Positions 21,027 through 31,663 of a stretch of 61,102 nt of DNA are shown here, piece by piece (position 1 is the first letter of the stretch; the number at the start of each line of letters is the position of its first letter). Source of the DNA: a virus. Its lineage: Duplodnaviria > Caudoviricetes. Location of the stretch: the IMG/VR virus record IMGVR_UViG_3300032893_000047, positions 1-61,102 of that record; one strand, given 5' to 3'. Made by a program: the position numbers and the translations under genes. The notes under the pieces were generated by a model. It was given only the letters and a program-made list of their open reading frames with translations. It was not told where the DNA came from and ran no database searches.

Positions 21027-21090
21027 AATATACAATTGAAGGATTAAATCAAGAATATTTATGCGAATTAGGATTTTAGAGGAGATGAAT

Positions 21091-21768
21091 ATGAACGAAA
21101 TAATAATCAATAATGGGATTGAAGATTTAAATATTTTTGAAAAAGATTCCGAGGCTTGGGTTTCAAGCAGAACTATTGCAGACAAATTTGAAAAACGGCA
21201 TAAAGACGTTTTGGAAAAAATAGATCAAATATTGAATGAAGATAATGATGAATTTACTGAGCGGAATTTTCGGCTTAGTAGTTTTAAAGATTCTTCAGGC
21301 AAAAAAAATAAAGAATATTTATTAAATCGGAAATCATTTTCTTTAATTGTGATGAGTTTTACTGGTAAAAAAGCATTGCAGTTTAAAAAACAATATATCA
21401 ATCGTTTTGAAGATATGTATAATTTAATTCAAACCCGATTATTATCAAAAGAAGGTTATCGAATTATGACCGATGCAATCAAATCATATATTGATAATCC
21501 TAAATTTTATGATTATGCACGGGAAGCAGATATGATAAATAAAATAGTATTGGGAATGTCTGCAAAAGAATTCAAGGAATTAAATTTTACTGAAAATGTA
21601 AGGGATAATATTGTCGCTGAAAAATTAAATAATCTTAATAAAGCACAGATATTAAATGCACAATTGATTATAGCGAGATTTTCTTTTTCCGAAAGACAAT
21701 CAGCAATTGAAATGAATTTTAATTCGGTTGAACAATATATGCTACATGAAGAAAATATTATTATTTAA
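21091..21768 (+). CDS. Rha family phage regulatory protein
   Basis: VSSRTIADKFEKRHKDVL...YLLNRKSFSLIVMSFTGKKALQFKKQYI. Confidence 0.9.
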   Translation: MNEIIINNGIEDLNIFEKDSEAWVSSRTIADKFEKRHKDVLEKIDQILNEDNDEFTERNFRLSSFKDSSGKKNKEYLLNRKSFSLIVMSFTGKKALQFKKQYINRFEDMYNLIQTRLLSKEGYRIMTDAIKSYIDNPKFYDYAREADMINKIVLGMSAKEFKELNFTENVRDNIVAEKLNNLNKAQILNAQLIIARFSFSERQSAIEMNFNSVEQYMLHEENIII

Positions 21769-23581: not shown

Positions 23582-25849
23582 ATGAACGAATATGAACAAT
23601 TTTTACTTTTAAAAAATCAAAGAAAAATAACTACTGGAAAAGTTATTGATAAAAAACTTATTAATGAAAAACTTTTTGATTATCAAAAAGATTGTGTAAT
23701 ATGGGCTTGTAAAAAGGGGAAATGCGCAATATTTCTTGATACTGGTCTTGGGAAAACATTTATATTATTGGAATATGCTCGATTGATGAATGAAAGGACA
23801 TTGATAATATCTCCATTATCAGTTGCCCGACAAACAGTTAATGAGGCTAAAAAAATAAATATTGATTTGAAATATATTCGTAAAGGCGAAATAGAAAACA
23901 AGAAAATATATATAACAAATTATGAGATGATCGAACATTTTGATTTTAGAAGTTTTGATACAATTATTCTTGATGAATCAAGCATAATAAAATCTATTGG
24001 TGGAATATACAAAAAAAAGATCATTGAAAAATGTAAAGACATAAAATATAAAATGGCTTGTACGGCGACGCCTGCTCCAAATGATAATGTTGAAATAGGC
24101 AATCATGCGGAATTTTTAGATATATGTACTTATCAAGAAATGCTAAGTCAGTTTTTTATAAATGCAAATAAAGAACATACTCATGAAATAAATGGAGATT
24201 TATATTTTACAAAAGGCAGTAATAAATCAGGTCAAGAATGGCGGTTGAAACATCATGCCGAAAACAAGTTTTATGAATGGTTATCTTCATGGGCTATTTG
24301 TTTTACCGAACCACAAGAATTAAATTATAAATATGATTATCGATTGCCAAAACTAAACATCATTAAACATGTTATTGATATAGATTATAATGGAGATTCA
24401 GGGACATTATTTTTTGATGGATTAAAAGGAATCGAAGACAGGATAATTTATAAACGAAAAAATATAAAAGAAAAAATAGATAAATTAAAACAAATAATAA
24501 TTCCAAATGAACAATATATAATATGGTGTACTTTACAAGATGAATCTAAAGAGATTAAAAAAAATATTGATTGTATAGAAATTAAAGGCGATGATAATCC
24601 AGATTATAAAGCACAGATGCTTGAAGATTTTCAGGATAAAAAATACAATATATTATTAACCAAAGGGAAAATTGCAGGATTTGGGATCAATATGCAGCAA
24701 TCGAATAATATGATATTTTTCGGATTAAATGATTCATGGGAATTGTTCTATCAATGTATTCGCAGGCAGTGGCGATTTGGACAATTTAAAGATGTTAACG
24801 TCCATATTATTTTAACTAATTTTGAGATAGAGATTTTAGAAAATATTATGAGAAAAGATTTACAGGCGAAAAGACTTAAAAAAGGTCTTATTGCACATAT
24901 AAAACGATATGAAGAAGGAGAATTAAAGATGAAGGAAATTAATTATGACGAAAATTATAAAAGTGAAAAGATTGAAGGAAATAATTTCATAGCAATTCAT
25001 GGAGATTCATGTGTTGAATTGAAACAGATACAAGACGATTCTATTGATTTGACAATTTATAGTCCACCTTTTGTTGATCTTTTTGTTTATTCTGATTCTA
25101 ATCGGGATTTAGGAAATTGTTTGAATGCTGATATTTTTTTCAAACAATATACATTTATCGTTAAAGAATTATTGAGAATAACAAAAAATGGAAGGTTGTC
25201 ATGCGTGCATTGTATGGACATTCCTGCAATGCTCCAAAAAGATGGATATATTGGATTGAAAGACTTCCCCGGTGATTTAATAAGATTGCATATCGAAGCA
25301 GGATGGAATTTTTATGGACGATGTTTTATTCAAAAAAATCCACAAGCGCAATCAATAAGGATTCATTCAAAAGCATTGTCTTTTAAACAATTGCATAAAG
25401 ATTCTGCAGATTTAAGACCTGCTTTAATTGACCAAATACTTATATTTAAAAAAGACGGCGAGAATCAAACTCCGGTTAATGCAGTTAAAAATGGTGACCT
25501 TGATAATGAAAAATGGATTGAATGGGCGAATGGCATATGGACAGATATTAACGAAACGAATACATTGCAATATTATTCCGCAAGAGATACAAACGATGAA
25601 AAACATATATGCCCATTACAACTTGAAACAATTGAACGATGTATTAAGTTATATAGCAATCCAGAAGAAACAATATTAACACCATTTATGGGTATTGGCA
25701 GCGAAGTATTTCAAGCATTAACATATAATAGAAAAGGTATAGGTATAGAACTTAAGGAATCTTATTTTAATACGGCGGTTAAAAACTTGAAAAGTTTAGA
25801 AGATAAAATTCGTGAGGACAATAAAGATTTATTTAAAGAGGTGATATAA
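23582..25849 (+). CDS. SNF2-type helicase fused to an amino (N4C/N6A) DNA methyltransferase
   Basis: DTGLGKT, DESS, TATP, Q..RR.WRFGQ; then SPPF and TPFMGIGS...GIELK. Confidence 0.9.
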   Translation: MNEYEQFLLLKNQRKITTGKVIDKKLINEKLFDYQKDCVIWACKKGKCAIFLDTGLGKTFILLEYARLMNERTLIISPLSVARQTVNEAKKINIDLKYIRKGEIENKKIYITNYEMIEHFDFRSFDTIILDESSIIKSIGGIYKKKIIEKCKDIKYKMACTATPAPNDNVEIGNHAEFLDICTYQEMLSQFFINANKEHTHEINGDLYFTKGSNKSGQEWRLKHHAENKFYEWLSSWAICFTEPQELNYKYDYRLPKLNIIKHVIDIDYNGDSGTLFFDGLKGIEDRIIYKRKNIKEKIDKLKQIIIPNEQYIIWCTLQDESKEIKKNIDCIEIKGDDNPDYKAQMLEDFQDKKYNILLTKGKIAGFGINMQQSNNMIFFGLNDSWELFYQCIRRQWRFGQFKDVNVHIILTNFEIEILENIMRKDLQAKRLKKGLIAHIKRYEEGELKMKEINYDENYKSEKIEGNNFIAIHGDSCVELKQIQDDSIDLTIYSPPFVDLFVYSDSNRDLGNCLNADIFFKQYTFIVKELLRITKNGRLSCVHCMDIPAMLQKDGYIGLKDFPGDLIRLHIEAGWNFYGRCFIQKNPQAQSIRIHSKALSFKQLHKDSADLRPALIDQILIFKKDGENQTPVNAVKNGDLDNEKWIEWANGIWTDINETNTLQYYSARDTNDEKHICPLQLETIERCIKLYSNPEETILTPFMGIGSEVFQALTYNRKGIGIELKESYFNTAVKNLKSLEDKIREDNKDLFKEVI

Positions 25850-26032: not shown

Positions 26033-26410
26033 ATGGCTTGTAAATTATGTGAAGAATTTAGAAAAAAGTATCCATTAAAAAATAATCAGCATGAAGTTTC
26101 AAAGAATATATTTTATGCGCCAATAAAATGTGCATTCGAAAATAATAATTTTTCAGTAGAGAACTGGAATTGTCAAACAATGGCATTTCTAAGGGATCAC
26201 CTTGACTTTGAAAAAAGATATAATGATGAATCTATCGGAATAATATGTATTCCTGAAAATGAAGAATTTAGCGGATTTCTTGTAATGACATGGTATAAGA
26301 ATCGAGGAACAACAGGATCCGCTTATATAATGTGTGGAGGCAATGAACCAGAAGAATTGATTTTAGAAAAAGCGGAAAAGATAATTGAATTATTGGAGGT
26401 GAAGATATGA
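26033..26410 (+). CDS. Hypothetical protein
   Basis: GGAGG RBS; CAF...NWNCQTM...WYKNRG. Confidence 0.6.
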   Translation: MACKLCEEFRKKYPLKNNQHEVSKNIFYAPIKCAFENNNFSVENWNCQTMAFLRDHLDFEKRYNDESIGIICIPENEEFSGFLVMTWYKNRGTTGSAYIMCGGNEPEELILEKAEKIIELLEVKI

Positions 26411-26883
26411 AAAGATATAAATTATTAAAGGACTTAGTAAATATAAAAGCAGGAACTATTATTGAATTAAATGATAATGATGATTCTATATGGCGACCAA
26501 ACGAACATATTAGCCTTTCAATTGACTCTTTTAAAATTAATGAGAGTTGGTTTGAAGAAATCGAATATGATATCGAAAAAGAATATGATGAAGCTATTAA
26601 ACAATGGGAAGAAGATAATGTAAAAAGTAGTGATGCACCTGATCAATGGTACTTAAGACAAGTTGATATAATTAGATTAGGAAATAAAGTAATTGAAAAA
26701 TTGAGAGATGAAAAATATAAATTAGAAAAATTTGAAAAATATATAGGCGAGTCGGCGATGGATTTGATAAGAATTATTCAAATGAATGATAAAGTATCTC
26801 AATATTTTGGATTGAAACTAGGAGATGATATTTTACAAGGAATTGTTAAATGGATAAGAACATTGATTGAAAATAAAAACTAA
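26407..26883 (+). CDS. Hypothetical protein
   Basis: MKRYKLLKDL..IKAGTI; GGAGG RBS. Confidence 0.6.
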   Translation: MKRYKLLKDLVNIKAGTIIELNDNDDSIWRPNEHISLSIDSFKINESWFEEIEYDIEKEYDEAIKQWEEDNVKSSDAPDQWYLRQVDIIRLGNKVIEKLRDEKYKLEKFEKYIGESAMDLIRIIQMNDKVSQYFGLKLGDDILQGIVKWIRTLIENKN

Positions 26884-26925
26884 ACCGATTTGTTGTGCAA
26901 ATTAAAAAAAATATTAAAATAAATG

Positions 26926-26953
26926 TTGACAAATAAAATAATTATGATATATT
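26926..26953 (+). promoter_or_regulatory. Promoter of the RHH / Y-RNA / Ro60 operon
   Basis: TTGACA-16-TATATT with extended TGn. Confidence 0.75.
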
Positions 26954-26971
26954 TGTAATTAGGAATAAGTA

Positions 26972-27097
26972 ATGATTGGACAGATAAAAGTAGATCGAGA
27001 AATTATTAAGCAATTGAAGATATTAGCAATAAAATCAAATAAAAAATTGCAAGAATTTGTTGATGATATTTTTAAAGATTATTTAAAGAAAAAATAA
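26972..27097 (+). CDS. Small ribbon-helix-helix regulator (41 aa)
   Basis: MIGQIKVDREIIKQLKILAIKSNKKLQEFVDDIFKDYLKKK; AGGA RBS. Confidence 0.7.
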   Translation: MIGQIKVDREIIKQLKILAIKSNKKLQEFVDDIFKDYLKKK

Positions 27098-27160
27098 GCG
27101 GTAGTGAGAAAATCGTTACTTCAATTGGTGAAATAACACGATTTTTATTTTTATCCGCTT
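27096..27160 (+). ncRNA. Y-RNA-like element 1 (short)
   Basis: AAGCGG/CCGCTT and AAAATCGT/ACGATTTT stems; GTAGTGA and GTTACTTC motifs shared with neighbouring elements. Confidence 0.6.
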
Positions 27161-27173
27161 TATTATATTTGAA

Positions 27174-27309
27174 AAAAACAAGTAGTGAAATATGGGTTAC
27201 TTCGAATGTTAATCGAGAGGTCGGAGGTTCGAATCCTCCATTTTCCGGAAGGGGAATTAGCTTAATTGGTAGAGCGCTAAATTTCTCATATTGATTATCT
27301 CTTGTTTTT
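27174..27309 (+). ncRNA. YrlA-type Y RNA containing a circularly permuted tRNA-Asn(GUU)-like domain
   Basis: Anticodon arm 27201-27217, T arm GGAGG-TTCGAAT-CCTCC, acceptor helix closed by a GGAA loop, D arm GCTT-AATTGGTA-GAGC, all inside a long terminal stem; just upstream of Ro60. Confidence 0.85.
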
Positions 27310-27323
27310 ATATATTTGAAAAT

Positions 27324-27404
27324 AAAACATGAACTGATTTAAGAGTTACTTCATAAAACTTAAAATTTAATTAGAACAATCTCTTAAAGATTTTGTCATG
27401 TTTT
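27324..27404 (+). ncRNA. Y-RNA-like element 3
   Basis: AAAACATGA/TCATGTTTT and TTTAAGAG/CTCTTAAA stems; GTTACTTC motif. Confidence 0.6.
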
Positions 27405-27423
27405 TTTATTTTAGGAGGAAAGA

Positions 27424-28839
27424 ATGAGCCGTTTTAATTTATCTGTAGACAACAGGATTGAAAATCTGGCTGGAGGAAAAGCATATAAAGAATCTCCAGA
27501 AATGCAATTGATTTCATTAGTTTTAACATCATTTGTTAATGAACAATTTTATCGGTCAAGCAATGAAACAATTCAAAATCTGGAAGAACTTTTTAATCAG
27601 GTCAAAGATAAAAAGTTTATTGCCAAACTCGGAATATTTGCCAGAATAAAATATGGCATGAGATCAATAACTCATATTTTGTCTGCCTTGATTGCGAAAA
27701 ACATCAAAGGCGAATTATGGACGAAAAATTACTTTTCAAAGGTCGTTCATAGAGTTGATGATATTACCGAAATACTTTCGTATTATATTCAAAATTATAA
27801 AAAGCCTATTCCAAATAGTCTTAAGCGTGGACTTGCAAAAGCATTTGAAAAGTTCGATCAATATCAACTTGCTAAATATCGGTCTGAAAAAAAAGGATTA
27901 AAGTTAATAGATGTTGTTAATTTAATACATCCGAGACCAAACGAAAAGAACAAAGAAGCATTAAAATTGCTTGTTGAAAACAAATTAACTTCATCAGAAA
28001 CATGGGAATCTGAACTGACAAAAGCAGGTCAGAAAGCAACCAACGATGAAGAAAAAGAAGAATTTAAAAAAGATGTCTGGATAAAACTTATTTCTGAAAA
28101 GAAGATAGGTTATTTCGCACTTTTAAGAAATCTTCGGAATATTTTTGAACAGGCTCCTGAAATAATGGACAAAGCACTTGAAATGCTTATTGATGAAAAT
28201 CTAATTAAAAAATCATTGGTATTGCCTTTCAGGTTTACGACAGCATATCAGGAATTACAGCAAACAAATTCAAAAGTATTAAAATATGTAAATAAGGCTT
28301 GCGATATTTCATTGAGCAATATCCCTAAATTTGATGGCAATACTTTAGTTGTTTTGGATGTTTCAGGATCAATGCAAGGTAAACCGGCTGAAATAGGCAG
28401 TTTATTTTCGGTGGCGTTAGTGAAATCCAACGATGCTGATTTAATTATATTTTCTGACAACGCTCAATATCAAGTATTAAATACAGATGATAGTCTGATT
28501 ACTATTGCCAATTCAATCCGTTTTGCGAGCGGCGGAACTAATTTCCATTCAATCTTTCAGGAAGCAAGAAAGGCTTATGATCGAATTATCATTTTATCGG
28601 ATATGCAGGGATGGATCGGACATGGCACACCAGTAAGAGATTTTAATATCTATAAGCAAAAATTTAATTGCAATCCTTTTATTTATTCATTCGACCTTCA
28701 AGGATATGGAAGTTTACAATTTCCTGAAAATAATGTTTTTTTACTTACCGGTTTCAGCGAGAAAATTTTTGATTTAATGAAAATTCTCGAAACTGATAAA
28801 AATGCCTTAATAAATGAAATTGATAAAATAGACATTTGA
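27424..28839 (+). CDS. rsr: Ro60/Rsr RNA-binding protein (TROVE + vWA)
   Basis: NLAGGKAY, FDQYQLAKY, VNLIHPRP, TWESELT, ALLRNLRN, VLPFRF, vWA DVSGSM, GGT, IILSDMQ. Confidence 0.95.
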   Translation: MSRFNLSVDNRIENLAGGKAYKESPEMQLISLVLTSFVNEQFYRSSNETIQNLEELFNQVKDKKFIAKLGIFARIKYGMRSITHILSALIAKNIKGELWTKNYFSKVVHRVDDITEILSYYIQNYKKPIPNSLKRGLAKAFEKFDQYQLAKYRSEKKGLKLIDVVNLIHPRPNEKNKEALKLLVENKLTSSETWESELTKAGQKATNDEEKEEFKKDVWIKLISEKKIGYFALLRNLRNIFEQAPEIMDKALEMLIDENLIKKSLVLPFRFTTAYQELQQTNSKVLKYVNKACDISLSNIPKFDGNTLVVLDVSGSMQGKPAEIGSLFSVALVKSNDADLIIFSDNAQYQVLNTDDSLITIANSIRFASGGTNFHSIFQEARKAYDRIIILSDMQGWIGHGTPVRDFNIYKQKFNCNPFIYSFDLQGYGSLQFPENNVFLLTGFSEKIFDLMKILETDKNALINEIDKIDI

Positions 28840-29218
28840 CAAAATGTTAAATGAGGATTATTGATAAAAAAATTATGTGCTGAAAATGATAACAATAACA
28901 CATGAAGATTATGAAAAATCTCAACAAAAAATATTCTATAGATGAAATTCAACTTGAAAGAAAATTTGAAAAATAAATAAGGACACAATTATGTATTTGA
29001 TCCATACCGATTACTCATTGAAGCCAATTTTTAATGTTTTGCTTTTCCTTGAATGGAAAAATCCTTATTGCAAACCGGCTGAACTTATTATTGAGTCTGG
29101 AGAACCTTGCCTTTCACACGGCAAAGCATATGCACATTTTGTTAAAAATATTTGGATTAAAAAATCATTTATGCAAACAAAAATATTTAAATTTATATCG
29201 AAATTCATTGGGGGACAA

Positions 29219-29530
29219 ATGACCTATTACCAGAGACGAGAATATGAGAAACGCTATGAGATTGAAAAATATAGATGTGCAAAAACCGGCAAGAGGGCGA
29301 CACAAATCGCTCACAGGATCTCAAACAGTAAGGTAAATCGAAAATTATACGGCAATAAAATCGATCATAATTTCAATTTAGTCCCGGTATGCGATCTTGA
29401 ATCAAATGATAGTTTCAACATAGGCGGAAATCCCGGAAAAGTTACAAATCTTATTTATTTAATAGAGAATTGTCAGGATGAAGATTTGACCTGTGATTAT
29501 ATAACCAAATTTATCGAAGATGAAAAATGA
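29219..29530 (+). CDS. HNH-like small protein
   Basis: CAKTG..ATQIAHRI...NLVPVC..SN; GGGGA RBS (the ORF track starts at 28991). Confidence 0.5.
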   Translation: MTYYQRREYEKRYEIEKYRCAKTGKRATQIAHRISNSKVNRKLYGNKIDHNFNLVPVCDLESNDSFNIGGNPGKVTNLIYLIENCQDEDLTCDYITKFIEDEK

Positions 29531-29711
29531 TTGATAAAGAAAGACTTGACCTCGAAACACAAAGCATTATTCAAGAAAGTCTTGAAGAATATAGAAATAA
29601 TTTAGTCAAAAAATTAAATGACTATGAAATAAAAGTTAATGATATTATTATTGAAATAAGATATGCTATAATATATGACGAGGAGTTTAGGTTGAAAATC
29701 GAGGTTAAGAA

Positions 29712-30746
29712 ATGAGCAAAAAGAAAAAGCCTAACAAAAGAATCGAAGATATTACAACTCAGATATCTGATCTAAAATATTCCTTCGGGAATCCCCGGAA
29801 AACGAACAAAATAAAACAAGAAATTGAATCATTAAAAAAATCCATTAAACAATTTGGAACATGGAGATCGATTGGAATAGATGAAAATAATAATGTAATA
29901 TTTGGCAATAAATTATCAATGGCATTGAAAGAACTTGGAATACAACAAACAAGTGCAAAAAGGCTTATCGGTTATACTAATGCAGAATTAAAGGCAATAA
30001 ATATTAAAGATAACGAACATGTAGGCGAATGGGATTTTGATTTAAAATTTGAATGGGAAAAAGAAATAAGGATTGAAATGCCAAGTATAGATTTTAATAT
30101 TGTTGGTATTCAAAATAGAGATAAATATAAAGATAAAATCGATCATTATAACGATGAATTTTCCCCTAATTTATGTTTAGAAAAATTAGGTAACAAATTA
30201 TATTTGATAAAATATTTGCAAAAATTTGATAAATCAATAGAATTATATGCAGGAAGAGGACAATTATCATCTTATTATAATATAATTTTTAAAAAAAATA
30301 TTAAAAATGATCAGCAAAAATATTGTGATTTTAATTATAAAGCCATTGATTTTATAGAAAAAAAACTTGGCGATAATATTGATTTTGATCTTATAGATTT
30401 TGACGATGAAGGGACTCCTGCATTAGAATTAAAGCATTTTTTTAAAATAATAAAAATAAAAAAAAATAATTTTATTTTATCAATTACAGATGGATTGCCA
30501 ATGGCGCTAAAAATTAAAAGCAATATTGATTTTAAAAAATATTTTGATATAGAGATAGATAAAAATGAAAGATTTGATAAATTTGAATCTATTTATGTAG
30601 ATTTTATAAATAAATTAGCTGAAGATTCTGGGTTTAAAGTAGAAGATAAATGTATTTGTTATAAAAAAAACAAAAATGTATTATATTTATCATTTTTTTT
30701 AAAAAAACATTTCAATAAATCGAGGTCAAGGACGTCAAAGAAATAA
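29712..30746 (+). CDS. ParB/Srx-like N-terminus fused to a SAM-dependent methyltransferase-like domain
   Basis: NPRK...LKKSIKQFG...IDENNNVIFGN; ELYAGRG; FDLIDFDDEG. Confidence 0.7.
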   Translation: MSKKKKPNKRIEDITTQISDLKYSFGNPRKTNKIKQEIESLKKSIKQFGTWRSIGIDENNNVIFGNKLSMALKELGIQQTSAKRLIGYTNAELKAINIKDNEHVGEWDFDLKFEWEKEIRIEMPSIDFNIVGIQNRDKYKDKIDHYNDEFSPNLCLEKLGNKLYLIKYLQKFDKSIELYAGRGQLSSYYNIIFKKNIKNDQQKYCDFNYKAIDFIEKKLGDNIDFDLIDFDDEGTPALELKHFFKIIKIKKNNFILSITDGLPMALKIKSNIDFKKYFDIEIDKNERFDKFESIYVDFINKLAEDSGFKVEDKCICYKKNKNVLYLSFFLKKHFNKSRSRTSKK

Positions 30747-30856: not shown

Positions 30857-31663
30857 ATGAGTATTATTTATCAACCAACGAACAAAGCCAGGGAATACAG
30901 TCCGCTCGCTTGTAACTTATATCTCGGATGCAACCATGGTTGTGCCTATTGTTTTGCTCCCGCAATCAATTACAAAAAAAGAGAGGACTATTTAACAATC
31001 AATCCCCGTCGAAATGTCATACAAGAACTCGAAAAAGATTGCAAACGTTATGTCAATTCAAATGAACAGGTATTATTATCATTCATGAGCGACCCATACA
31101 ATAGTCTTGAAAAAGAATTAAGACTCACCCGGGAAGCATTGAAATTATTCAAAAAATATCAAATACCCACGGCAATCCTGACAAAATCAAAAGACGTATT
31201 AAACGATATGGATATTATCAAGAAATTCGTAGAAAATATCCAGATCGGAATGACTTTGACATTCGATAACGATAAAGATTCTTTGAAATGGGAACCCGGA
31301 GCAAGTCTTCCGGACGAAAGAATCCGAGCATTAAAAACCCTAAAACAAAATAATATCAAAACATGGGCGAGTTTTGAGCCTGTAATAATACCCGAACAAT
31401 CAATATCTATGATTGAAAGATCCCTGGAATGGATAGACATATATAAAGTTGGGAAAATAAACAATTATCAGGGATTGGACAAAAATATCGACTGGAATGA
31501 TTTTCTCGATAAAACCGTAAAAATATTGAGAAAAGCAAAAAAGCCATTTTATGTTAAAATAGATTTACGGCAAGCCGCAAATAAAATAAAACTATTTGGG
31601 AATGAATGTCTACCGGATGAATTTTGCATTAAGCCTAATTGGGGTAATTTTCAAGATGAATAA
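30857..31663 (+). CDS. Radical SAM protein (SPL/DUF5131-like)
   Basis: CNHGCAYC; SFMSDPY; ILTK; WASFEP. Confidence 0.85.
   Translation: MSIIYQPTNKAREYSPLACNLYLGCNHGCAYCFAPAINYKKREDYLTINPRRNVIQELEKDCKRYVNSNEQVLLSFMSDPYNSLEKELRLTREALKLFKKYQIPTAILTKSKDVLNDMDIIKKFVENIQIGMTLTFDNDKDSLKWEPGASLPDERIRALKTLKQNNIKTWASFEPVIIPEQSISMIERSLEWIDIYKVGKINNYQGLDKNIDWNDFLDKTVKILRKAKKPFYVKIDLRQAANKIKLFGNECLPDEFCIKPNWGNFQDE

What the first reader, a model, noticed from the sequence alone, without database searches (positions are those of the whole stretch)
26926..28839. Phage Ro60 operon with a tandem array of three Y-like RNAs: shared scaffold, different cargo
Seen: the order is promoter, 41-aa RHH regulator, three hairpin elements (27096-27160, 27174-27309, 27324-27404), then Ro60. 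Each element has an outer stem, an asymmetric internal loop (GTAGTGA, GTAGTGA, GAACTGA on the 5' side) and an 8-bp inner stem running into an invariant GTTACTTC. The stem sequences differ between copies but pairing is kept (AAAATCGT/ACGATTTT, AATATGGG/CTCATATT, TTTAAGAG/CTCTTAAA). The apical cargo differs: a short loop containing AATTGGT, a whole permuted tRNA, and an AU-rich loop. Established: bacterial Ro60 (Rsr) binds Y RNAs encoded next to it, which can tether it to effectors such as PNPase, and some phages carry rsr with a YrlA. Inference: a modular, probably autoregulated RNP system in which one Ro60 ring is loaded with alternative RNAs. No rtcB/rtcA is visible in this genome.
Basis: partly seen in the sequence, partly recalled or inferred. 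Interest (0 to 1): 0.88.

Follow-up and report, generated by a model that had tools for sequence, protein, structure and literature searches.

The report
Phage Ro60 with three Y-RNAs
A wetland phage carries a gene for the ring-shaped RNA-binding protein Ro60 and, just upstream of it, three small structured RNAs that share one conserved docking stem but have different tips, a known kind of system seen here in a clear modular form.

Summary
At 27095-27404 (+) three hairpin elements share an outer stem, a conserved bulged helix, an 8-bp inner stem and the heptamer UUACUUC. They lie just upstream of a Ro60 gene (27424-28839) in a 61-kb tailed-phage record.

A covariance model built only from elements of other Ro60 loci finds exactly these three in the window (45-54 bits, E about 1e-11 to 1e-14; next best 14 bits).

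The same scaffold lies beside related Ro60 genes in 136 of 163 loci. All 306 hits are on the Ro60 strand, and the stems covary strongly.

Element 2 is a divergent YrlA-type Y RNA with T arm, closed acceptor-like hairpin and D arm. It scores 31 bits against Rfam YrlA, below the cut-off of 69. Elements 1 and 3 are short Y-like RNAs.

This is a Ro60/Y-RNA module of a known kind. Several Y RNAs per Ro60 are published, including two upstream of a Thermus phage Ro60.

The 41-aa "RHH regulator" is an orphan ORF that is absent from related loci, so autoregulation is unsupported. Expression and Ro60 binding are untested.

The library searches found no paper describing this scaffold, arrays of up to six, true tRNAs inside scaffolds in crAss-like phages, or scaffolds inside tRNA arrays.

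The parts
26926..26953 (+). Sigma-70-like promoter candidate (TTGACA, 16 nt, TATATT, TG before the second hexamer). Its 3' part is also the octamer TATATTTG.
   Evidence: 11 of 12 matches, the best + strand site in 26400-29100. The number of promoter-like sites there (18) does not exceed shuffles (16.3 +/- 4.1), so this is only a candidate.
26972..27097 (+). Orphan 41-aa ORF. Its stop codon touches the first base of element 1. It could be a ribbon-helix-helix protein or not a gene at all.
   Evidence: 56B_RHH 16.6 bits, below cut-off 27.2, E 0.008; AF2 single sequence: two helices, no strand; no homologue.
27095..27161 (+). Element 1, a short Y-like RNA. Outer stem 27096-27101/27155-27160; conserved helix strands 27102-27107/27147-27154; inner stem 27108-27115/27139-27146; UUACUUC 27116-27122; 16-nt tip 27123-27138.
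   Evidence: R2 53.9 bits, E 5e-14. Fold -16.1 kcal/mol, z -2.78. The tip resembles that of short elements in other loci, with an A-rich run and ACA before the inner stem.
27174..27309 (+). Element 2, a YrlA-like Y RNA. UUACUUC 27197-27203; CGAAUG 27203-27208; variable-arm hairpin 27201-27217; T arm 27223-27239; closed 7-bp acceptor-like hairpin 27240-27257; D arm 27260-27275; inner stem 27189-27196/27285-27292; outer stem 27174-27182/27301-27309.
   Evidence: Rfam YrlA 31.2 bits (cut-off 69), E 8e-5. R1 50.5 bits, although it was not in the training set. R2 45.3 bits. T arm covariation and a conserved D arm in 20 aligned elements. ARAGORN misreads 27173-27247 as tRNA-Asn.
27324..27404 (+). 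Element 3, a short Y-like RNA with a 28-nt A/U-rich tip (27353-27380). UUACUUC 27346-27352; inner stem 27338-27345/27381-27388; outer stem 27324-27331/27397-27404, followed by a U run.
   Evidence: R2 48.6 bits, E 2.5e-12. It carries the rare C:G version of the conserved G:C pair of the bulged helix, a compensatory change shared with two elements elsewhere.
27424..28839 (+). Ro60 / Rsr-like protein, 471 aa: TROVE ring plus vWA domain with D312-x-S314-x-S316. AGGAGG lies 6 nt upstream of the start codon.
   Evidence: Pfam TROVE 76.1 bits. phrog_850 'RNA-binding protein' 3.2e-41. PDB by sequence: only phage phiLo Ro60, 9KOP/9L5Y, E 4e-23. AF2 model pLDDT 83 matches Ro60 structures 9KOP, 1YVP, 2NVO and 9NEP with TM 0.6-0.74.

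Best explanation
The locus is a phage-borne Ro60/Y-RNA module. The phage makes a Ro60 ring protein and three small non-coding RNAs, encoded head to tail directly upstream on the same strand.

Shown by sequence and comparison:
- Each RNA pairs its 5' and 3' ends into a long stem.
- That stem holds a conserved bulged helix (5' Y-A-G-Y-G-A opposite 3' U-C-U-U-U), an 8-bp variable helix, and a nearly invariant 5' bulge, UUACUUC.
- Only the tip beyond that stem differs between copies.

Inferred:
- The conserved stem is the docking site for the Ro60 ring, as in metazoan, Deinococcus, Salmonella, Mycobacterium and Thermus-phage Y RNAs.
- The RNAs are cut out of one or a few precursors.
- The tips recruit different partners. 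The tRNA-like elbow of element 2 would attract a tRNA-binding factor. The small tips of elements 1 and 3 may contact a host exoribonuclease such as PNPase, as published for Yrn1 and for phiLo Yrl1/Yrl2.
- During infection the particles would redirect or gate host RNA decay and quality control of structured RNA. No RtcB/RtcA repair enzymes are part of this version.
For: - The Ro60 identity comes from domain, sequence and fold.
- The three elements are the only significant hits in the window to a model trained elsewhere, and also to R1.
- R1 finds 147 hits in 63 of 80 genome loci and 159 hits in 73 of 83 viral/phage loci. All 306 are on the Ro60 strand, and 299 of 306 lie upstream of Ro60 (my hand tally).
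- UUACUUC occurs within 700 nt upstream in 125 of 158 loci, against 21 in a 1300-nt coding control.
- Covariation in 150 aligned elements: 88.9% of cells paired against 60.5% in shuffles; covariation score 0.748 against 0.196; 0 of 500 shuffles reach it; slid controls 0.10-0.15.
- Inside the conserved helix, one pair is A-U in 131 and G-C in 15. The next is G-C in 141, C-G in 3 and U-A in 1.
- In three whole bacterial genomes the only R1 hits at E<=1e-4 lie at the Ro60 locus.
- Element 2 has a YrlA match, and its T and D arms are conserved with covariation.
- Published precedent: at least two Y RNAs per Ro60 in three bacteria, with YrlA and YrlB of M. smegmatis cut from one precursor upstream of rsr (PMC4201824, passages and sections 5-6). 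Two Y-like RNAs upstream of the phiLo phage Ro60 bind it and host PNPase (PMC12135203, passages and section 17).
Against: - There are no data on expression or binding. The one run that holds the stretch is DNA.
- Single-sequence folds are only 2-2.8 sd better than shuffles.
- Element 2 is far below the Rfam YrlA cut-off (31.2 against 69), and the window has no Rfam hit at gathering scores.
- Elements 1 and 3 lack the published GNCGAAN0-1G motif. Element 2 has it in 7 of 8 positions.
- Element 1 has G opposite A at the covarying G:C position.
- 27 of 163 loci gave no R1 hit at E<=1e-3, and only 8 of those lack upstream sequence.
- In 101 Bacteroidia genomes TROVE was found in 10, but R1 at E<=1e-4 in only 1. 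Only 48 candidates per genome were scored there. This exact scaffold therefore belongs to one Ro60 clade.
- Loci were chosen through Ro60, and the training elements through a stem-requiring scan. The percentage paired is therefore partly built in.
- The A3 alignment is fitted to the model.
- Several viral loci are near-duplicates.
Confidence: 0.75

Rival explanations
1. The three hairpins are a cis-acting leader of the Ro60 mRNA. Ro60 binds the scaffolds in its own 5' untranslated region and controls its own translation or transcript stability. No free small RNAs act in trans.
For: The array lies on the same strand 20 nt from the Ro60 start, and the scan finds no terminator-like site between them. 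A single promoter-like site lies upstream. This does not exclude trans-acting RNAs as well.
Against: Some related records have the same scaffolds downstream of Ro60 (7 of 306 hits; crAss001). Others have them more than 100 kb away inside tRNA arrays. A pure leader cannot explain either. Read by eye, L001, L002 and L003 have a terminator-like hairpin between array and Ro60. Characterised homologues are stable trans-acting RNAs (PMC4201824).
Confidence: 0.1
2. The scaffold is a processing or stability cassette of RNAs descended from tRNA operons, for example a double-stranded handle for RNase III, RNase P or RNase Z. It would work without Ro60, and the neighbourhood with Ro60 would only reflect shared mobility with tRNA clusters.
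For: In the 634.8-kb phage LR745206.1 three scaffolds abut tRNA genes inside tRNA arrays far from the single TROVE gene. In two crAss-like phages the scaffold encloses annotated tRNAs that pass the Rfam tRNA cut-off. Several bacterial loci have 8-12 tRNA genes next to the array. TROVE genes in 20 of 29 archaeal tRNA clusters are reported in PMC6333295 (one passage read).
Against: Every record examined that holds the scaffold also holds a TROVE gene, although all were reached through Ro60. In three whole genomes the hits lie only at the Ro60 locus. An invariant single-stranded heptamer plus a conserved bulged helix looks like a protein-recognition site, not a generic nuclease handle. The window itself has no tRNA genes.
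Confidence: 0.1
3. The elements are decaying tRNA-derived or repeat remnants with no function.
For: Element 2 contains tRNA-like arms, and ARAGORN calls a false tRNA there. The spacer plus outer stem of elements 2 and 3 look duplicated.
Against: Compensatory changes keep all three helices across 150 elements from several phyla and from viruses. UACUUC is held in 146-150 of 150 at each position. Strand and position relative to Ro60 are fixed.
Confidence: 0.03

Closest known systems
Thermus phage phiLo Ro60 with Yrl1 and Yrl2 (PMC12135203, NAR 2025; PDB 9KOP, 9L5Y)
   Same: It is a phage-encoded Ro60 with more than one Y-like RNA directly upstream of the gene. phiLo Ro60 is the only solved protein found by sequence (E 4e-23) and the top fold match. 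No PNPase or Rtc genes were reported in that phage; here I tested and did not find RtcB and RtcA only.
   Different: There are three RNAs here rather than two. The phiLo RNAs were recognised by a CGAA motif in a large bulge, whereas only element 2 here has CGAA. Whether phiLo RNAs have UUACUUC and the bulged helix was not tested, because the phiLo record was not among the hits listed. Binding and a PNPase complex are shown for phiLo and are not shown here.
YrlA / YrlB of Salmonella Typhimurium and Mycobacterium smegmatis (Chen et al. 2014, PMC4201824; Rfam RF02553; structure preprint 10.1101/312249)
   Same: The RNAs are encoded within 4 kb of Ro60 on the same strand. One RNA has a tRNA-like domain (T arm, closed acceptor-like stem, D arm, long variable arm), and there are shorter companion RNAs. 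In M. smegmatis both lie upstream of rsr and come from one precursor. The modular design is a Ro60-binding stem plus an effector tip.
   Different: The Rfam score is 31.2 bits against a cut-off of 69. The published motif GNCGAAN0-1G is met in 7 of 8 positions in element 2 and not at all in elements 1 and 3. The conserved features here are UUACUUC and the Y-A-G-Y-G-A / U-U-U-C-U helix. There is no rtcBA operon and no RtcR. The host is unknown and the setting is a phage.
Deinococcus radiodurans Rsr with Yrn1/Yrn2 and PNPase (RYPER), and metazoan Y RNAs
   Same: A Ro60 ring plus several Y RNAs whose paired ends form a conserved bulged helix. The tips tether other proteins. The predicted fold matches 2NVO and 1YVP.
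   Different: There is no sequence similarity of the RNAs to Rfam Y_RNA (no hit). Which nucleotides contact Ro60 here is unknown.

Membership tests
Ro60 / Rsr (TROVE + vWA ring proteins) | TROVE (HEAT-repeat ring) domain | tested here: met
   Pfam PF05731 E 4e-21, 76.1 bits against cut-off 23. phrog_850 3.2e-41.
Ro60 / Rsr (TROVE + vWA ring proteins) | C-terminal vWA domain with MIDAS D-x-S-x-S | tested here: met
   D312, S314 and S316 are invariant in 13 aligned homologues. The Pfam vWA_Ro60 match is below its cut-off (21.3 against 27.7). The model has a beta/alpha domain from residue 307 that matches vWA structures.
Ro60 / Rsr (TROVE + vWA ring proteins) | Overall fold like solved Ro60 rings | tested here: met
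   Foldseek: 9KOP E 8.6e-16; 1YVP TMq 0.72; 2NVO TMq 0.66; human Ro60 9NEP TMq 0.72. Model pLDDT 83.2, pTM 0.79.
Ro60 / Rsr (TROVE + vWA ring proteins) | Binds Y RNA on its outer surface | not testable with these tools
   No tool for protein-RNA complexes was available. This needs EMSA or RIP.
YrlA (Rfam RF02553), element 2 only | Encoded within 4 kb of Ro60 on the same strand | tested here: met
   27174-27309 (+), 115 nt upstream of the Ro60 start.
YrlA (Rfam RF02553), element 2 only | tRNA-like domain: T arm, closed acceptor-like stem, D arm | tested here: met
   RNAalifold on 20 elements: T arm of 5 bp, with 3 pairs changed on both sides in 8-11 sequences; D arm of 4 bp, conserved. The acceptor-like hairpin was not called by RNAalifold because its length varies, but it is visible in each row of A4.
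YrlA (Rfam RF02553), element 2 only | GNCGAAN0-1G motif near the 5' end | tested here: inconclusive
   Element 2 reads U-U-C-G-A-A-U-G at 27201-27208, 7 of 8 positions with U for the first G. CGANUG is conserved in the aligned YrlA-like elements.
YrlA (Rfam RF02553), element 2 only | Reaches the Rfam gathering score | tested here: not met
   31.2 bits against 69. Other Ro60-adjacent YrlA-like RNAs also stay below it: Gordonia phage Neville 44.1, and 7 of 8 Bacteroidia loci at 36.6-46.9.
Y RNAs in general, all three elements | 5' and 3' ends pair into a long stem with a conserved bulged helix | tested here: met
   Three helices supported by covariation in 150 elements. Bulged pyrimidine and conserved 5-step helix.
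Y RNAs in general, all three elements | Stable small RNAs bound by Ro60 in vivo | not testable with these tools
   No RNA run is listed for this stretch.
Ribbon-helix-helix regulators (the 41-aa ORF) | Significant match to an RHH family, or a strand-helix-helix fold | tested here: not met
   56B_RHH 16.6 bits against cut-off 27.2. The AF2 single-sequence model has two helices and no strand, which is weak evidence because the strand forms in dimers. No homologues were found.

The most novel reading that the evidence does not exclude
One large clade of bacterial and viral Ro60 proteins may use a so far undescribed, nearly invariant docking cassette: a bulged Y-A-G-Y-G-A / U-U-U-C-U helix, an 8-bp helix and a UUACUUC bulge.

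This cassette would serve as a universal adaptor. Genomes plug different tips into it: 13-nt loops, T-arm hairpins, YrlA-type tRNA mimics, complete tRNAs (crAss-like phages) and domains of 160-230 nt with no Rfam match (huge-phage-like contigs).

They also multiply it into arrays of up to six and scatter it inside tRNA operons. Ro60 would then be a general holder or quality-control hub for tRNA-operon products. Phages could use it to protect or deliver tRNAs and to retarget host RNA decay.
Probability: 0.3. Interest if true: 0.75.

Novelty: new variant of a known kind. Interest (0 to 1): 0.55.

Why it matters
The module itself, Ro60 with neighbouring Y RNAs including in phages, is established. 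The window is therefore not a new kind of system.

The locus does point to a sharply defined candidate Ro60-recognition cassette shared by hundreds of elements in several bacterial phyla and many viral contigs. The cassette has clear mutational targets: the UUACUUC bulge and two covarying pairs. Bacterial Ro60 recognition has so far been tied only to a loose 5'-strand motif.

The link to tRNA genes also bears on the published idea that YrlA arose from dimeric tRNA transcripts. That link consists of scaffolds abutting tRNAs in arrays and true tRNAs inside scaffolds. It suggests that phage Ro60 particles act on tRNA metabolism during infection. All of this is testable with ordinary RNA-protein assays.

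Tried and rejected
- Rfam at gathering scores gave nothing in the window. It gave no YrlA in 20 related loci, only 47 tRNA hits.
- Rfam and single-sequence folding of the 232-nt tip of the second element of LR745206.1 gave no match at E<=1. The fold was no better than shuffles (z -0.73). Its nature stays open.
- Public runs: one listed holder, a wetland metagenome DNA run that may be the source of the window. No RNA holder is listed.
- The idea that TATATTTG marks a separate promoter for each element was dropped. It occurs 14 times on the + strand (3.8 expected), and 3 of those lie before the 41-aa ORF, element 2 and element 3. The other 11 lie mostly inside coding sequence with no promoter context. 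The two copies in the spacers look like part of a duplicated unit.
- The 41-aa ORF as a conserved regulator was rejected.
- A test of scaffold against TROVE across 101 Bacteroidia genomes was uninformative for sensitivity. R1 hit only the centre genome, while 10 genomes hold TROVE, and only 48 first-look candidates per genome were scored. Fetching 8 of the 9 other TROVE loci showed weaker R1 hits (18-29 bits) and sub-threshold YrlA hits next to those genes. The count of 10 of 101 includes G099, which the tool flags as unpublished. I fetched nothing from it and no other claim rests on it.
- A scan of viral contigs with a 14-base scaffold pattern was considered and not run. By my rough estimate, chance matches would outnumber true ones.
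- Complex prediction, the search of protein representatives, the protein-atlas search and the metagenome-contig scan were not used.
- The two Wolin-laboratory reviews (PMC10870794, PMC6047535) are not held.
- Supplements are closed. Supplemental Tables S1/S2 and Fig. S4 of Chen et al. 2014 may already list several Y RNAs per genome, phage loci or this motif. I could not see them.
- 'Not in print' rests only on searches of the held library.
Full report
What is in the window.

The record is a 61,102-bp virus contig with direct terminal repeats. It encodes a portal, head protease, major head protein, tail sheath, tape measure and baseplate wedge, so it is a contractile-tailed phage.

Between a 158-aa ORF that ends at 26883 and the 471-aa ORF at 27424-28839 lie these features:
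- a promoter-like site at 26926-26953;
- a 41-aa ORF at 26972-27097;
- three hairpin elements at 27096-27160, 27174-27309 and 27324-27404;
- an AGGAGG site.

The large ORF is a Ro60. Pfam TROVE scores 76.1 bits. A D-x-S-x-S motif is invariant among 13 homologues. The only solved relative by sequence is the Ro60 of Thermus phage phiLo (E 4e-23). An AlphaFold model (pLDDT 83) matches phiLo, Xenopus, human and Deinococcus Ro60 with TM 0.6-0.74.

Check of the observation.

Taken alone, each fold is only 2-2.8 sd better than shuffles.

The decisive test was comparative. I collected 163 loci around relatives of this Ro60: 80 of 158 confirmed places in species-representative genomes, 80 of 104 in IMG/VR, and named phage records.

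A blind k-mer count showed UUACUUC in the 700 nt upstream of Ro60 in 125 of 158 loci. The count was 21 in a coding control. UUUUCUC gave 81 against 5.

A motif-plus-stem scan found 1.60 scaffolds per kb upstream on the Ro60 strand, against 0.078 per kb elsewhere.

Covariance model R1 was built from 30 short elements. It found 147 hits in 63 of 80 genome loci and 159 hits in 73 of 83 viral/phage loci, every one on the Ro60 strand.

Model R2 was built from 22 elements, none from the window. It scored the window's three elements at 53.9, 48.6 and 45.3 bits. Nothing else was above 14.4 bits.

Anatomy.

In 150 aligned elements the six bases UACUUC are each held in 146 to 150 of 150.

After a bulged pyrimidine, the 5' strand A-G-Y-G-A faces U-U-U-C-U. 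The first pair is A-U in 131 and G-C in 15. The second is G-C in 141, C-G in 3 and U-A in 1. There is a constant Y.U mismatch in the middle. Element 3 of the window is one of the three C-G cases.

The outer and inner stems covary at every position. In all, 88.9% of cells are paired against 60.5% in shuffles. The covariation score is 0.748 against 0.196, and 0.10-0.15 when partners are slid.

These counts lean towards the structure for two reasons. The alignment is model-fitted, and the seed elements were picked by a scan that required stems. The variety of pair types cannot be produced that way.

The tips.

Among 153 distinct high-quality elements, tips fall into four length classes:
- 13-34 nt;
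- about 45-61 nt, often a T-arm hairpin;
- about 73-111 nt, tRNA-like;
- about 160-280 nt.

Element 2 belongs to the tRNA-like class. It matches Rfam YrlA at 31.2 bits (E 8e-5, cut-off 69). Aligned with 19 relatives, it shows a covarying T arm and a conserved D arm. It also has a closed 7-bp acceptor-like hairpin and a 5-bp/7-nt hairpin before the T arm, which ARAGORN misreads as an anticodon arm. The YrlA literature would call that hairpin a long variable arm (10.1101/312249, passages).

Element 1 has the tip typical of the short class, with an A-rich run and ACA before the inner stem. Element 3 has a 28-nt A/U-rich tip. I did not find a close counterpart for that tip.

Arrays are the rule. 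By my tally, two or more hits occur in 45 of 80 genome loci and 37 of 83 viral loci, with up to 5 and 6 respectively. L001 has five. These are lower bounds, because long-tip elements are often missed. Several viral loci are near-duplicates.

What it most likely is.

It is a Ro60/Y-RNA module. The literature already shows several relevant points:
- YrlA-like RNAs lie next to Ro60 in 254 bacteria and 22 phages.
- There are at least two Y RNAs per species in Salmonella, M. smegmatis and D. radiodurans.
- In M. smegmatis both are processed from one precursor upstream of rsr (PMC4201824, abstract, passages, sections 5 and 6).
- Two Y-like RNAs upstream of the phiLo phage Ro60 bind it and assemble with host PNPase (PMC12135203, passages, section 17).

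The conserved stem is therefore most likely the Ro60 docking site, and the tips are effector-binding modules. This is an inference; nothing here shows binding or expression.

RtcB and RtcA are not in the record. I scanned 23 further window ORFs against Pfam or PHROGs, and none matched an RNA-repair or RNA-decay family.

What is not supported.

The 41-aa ORF is an orphan. Its RHH match is below threshold. It has no homologue among 5.8 billion proteins, none in 164 related loci and no PHROG. Its model is two helices. It is not part of the conserved system, so 'autoregulated' has no basis.

How far from the known.

The scaffold in this exact form belongs to one Ro60 clade of 470-490 aa. That clade is found in Bacteroidota, Verrucomicrobiota, Sericytochromatia, Chloroflexota and many viral contigs.

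In 101 Bacteroidia genomes, TROVE genes were found in 10 but a strong R1 hit in only 1 (limited sensitivity). Next to 8 TROVE genes of other clades there are weaker R1 hits (18-29 bits) and sub-threshold YrlA hits in 7 of 8. A Gordonia phage YrlA also stays below the Rfam cut-off at 44.1 bits.

My six library searches found no paper that links UACUUC to Ro60 or Y RNAs, or crAss-like phages to Y RNAs. Subscription papers, two reviews and the supplements of Chen et al. 2014 could not be read.

I therefore rate the window as a new variant of a known kind. The module is known. The sharply conserved cassette and its modular use appear undescribed.

Side findings.

These bear on mechanism.
- In the crAss-like phages csAssE-Sib and cr111_1 the scaffold encloses annotated tRNAs in normal cloverleaf order (tRNA-Tyr, tRNA-Lys, tRNA-Gln). 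These pass the Rfam tRNA cut-off at 43, 53 and 52 bits.
- In crAss001 the scaffolds lie downstream of the TROVE gene.
- In the 634.8-kb phage LR745206.1, which has one TROVE gene, three more scaffolds abut tRNA genes inside tRNA arrays 100-150 kb away.
- Several bacterial loci have 8-12 tRNA genes next to the Y array.

All this fits the published proposal that YrlA arose from dimeric tRNA transcripts (10.1101/312249, discussion passage). It also keeps open a rival reading, in which the cassette serves tRNA-operon processing.

Noticed in passing
L003 (OR575929.1, phage csAssE-Sib) 1996-2415; L166 (NC_055880.1, cr111_1) 1389-1520: In two crAss-like phages the Y-type scaffold encloses annotated tRNAs in normal cloverleaf order: tRNA-Tyr 2166-2238, tRNA-Lys 2311-2384 and tRNA-Gln 1417-1492. 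All pass the Rfam tRNA cut-off. The conserved CGAA then forms the start of the acceptor stem. R1 scores 26-28 bits with filters off.
   Followed up: partly
L165 (MH675552.1, Bacteroides phage crAss001) 3968-4288: Two scaffolds lie downstream, not upstream, of the TROVE gene. They are followed by a 144-nt match to the tRNA model whose insert, at the anticodon-arm position, contains GUUACUUC. This may be a non-permuted tRNA carrying the Ro60 cassette.
   Followed up: no
L169 1459-1530, L170 1533-1674, L171 1395-1502 (LR745206.1, about 343, 369 and 389 kb): In this 634.8-kb phage three more scaffolds (65.7, 34.5 and 27.6 bits) sit inside tRNA arrays and directly abut tRNA genes. They are 100-150 kb from the genome's only TROVE gene.
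   Followed up: partly
L016, L019, L030, L040, L042, L043 (bacterial genome loci), upstream of Ro60: Arrays of 8-12 tRNA genes lie on the Ro60 strand, next to or interleaved with the Y-like elements. A paper on archaeal tRNA clusters reports a TROVE gene in 20 of 29 clusters (PMC6333295).
   Followed up: partly
L002 2125-2409 and similar elements in L115-L132, L150, L156: Huge-phage-like contigs share a two-element array whose second element carries a 161-232-nt tip. That tip has no Rfam match, and its single-sequence fold is not significant.
   Followed up: partly
window 26948, 27164, 27311: The octamer TATATTTG occurs 14 times on the + strand (3.8 expected). Three copies sit just before the 41-aa ORF, element 2 and element 3. 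The two spacers and the outer stems of elements 2 and 3 look like one duplicated unit.
   Followed up: partly
window 27173-27247: ARAGORN calls a tRNA-Asn(GUU) here. It is a false cloverleaf built from the variable-arm hairpin and T arm of element 2, so automatic annotation would mislabel this locus.
   Followed up: yes
L015 1693-1763; L128 4225-4301; L145 4244-4538; L147 4210-4339; L131 2594-2822: In a few loci, scaffold hits lie downstream of Ro60 on the same strand (7 of 306 hits).
   Followed up: no
window 23582-25849, 30857-31663, 29712-30746, 21061-21768: Neighbouring genes are a 755-aa helicase fused to a DNA methyltransferase, a radical SAM protein, a ParB-like nuclease/methyltransferase-like protein and a Rha regulator. 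The ORFs directly flanking the Ro60 module (26033-26883, 28991-29715) match no family.
   Followed up: no
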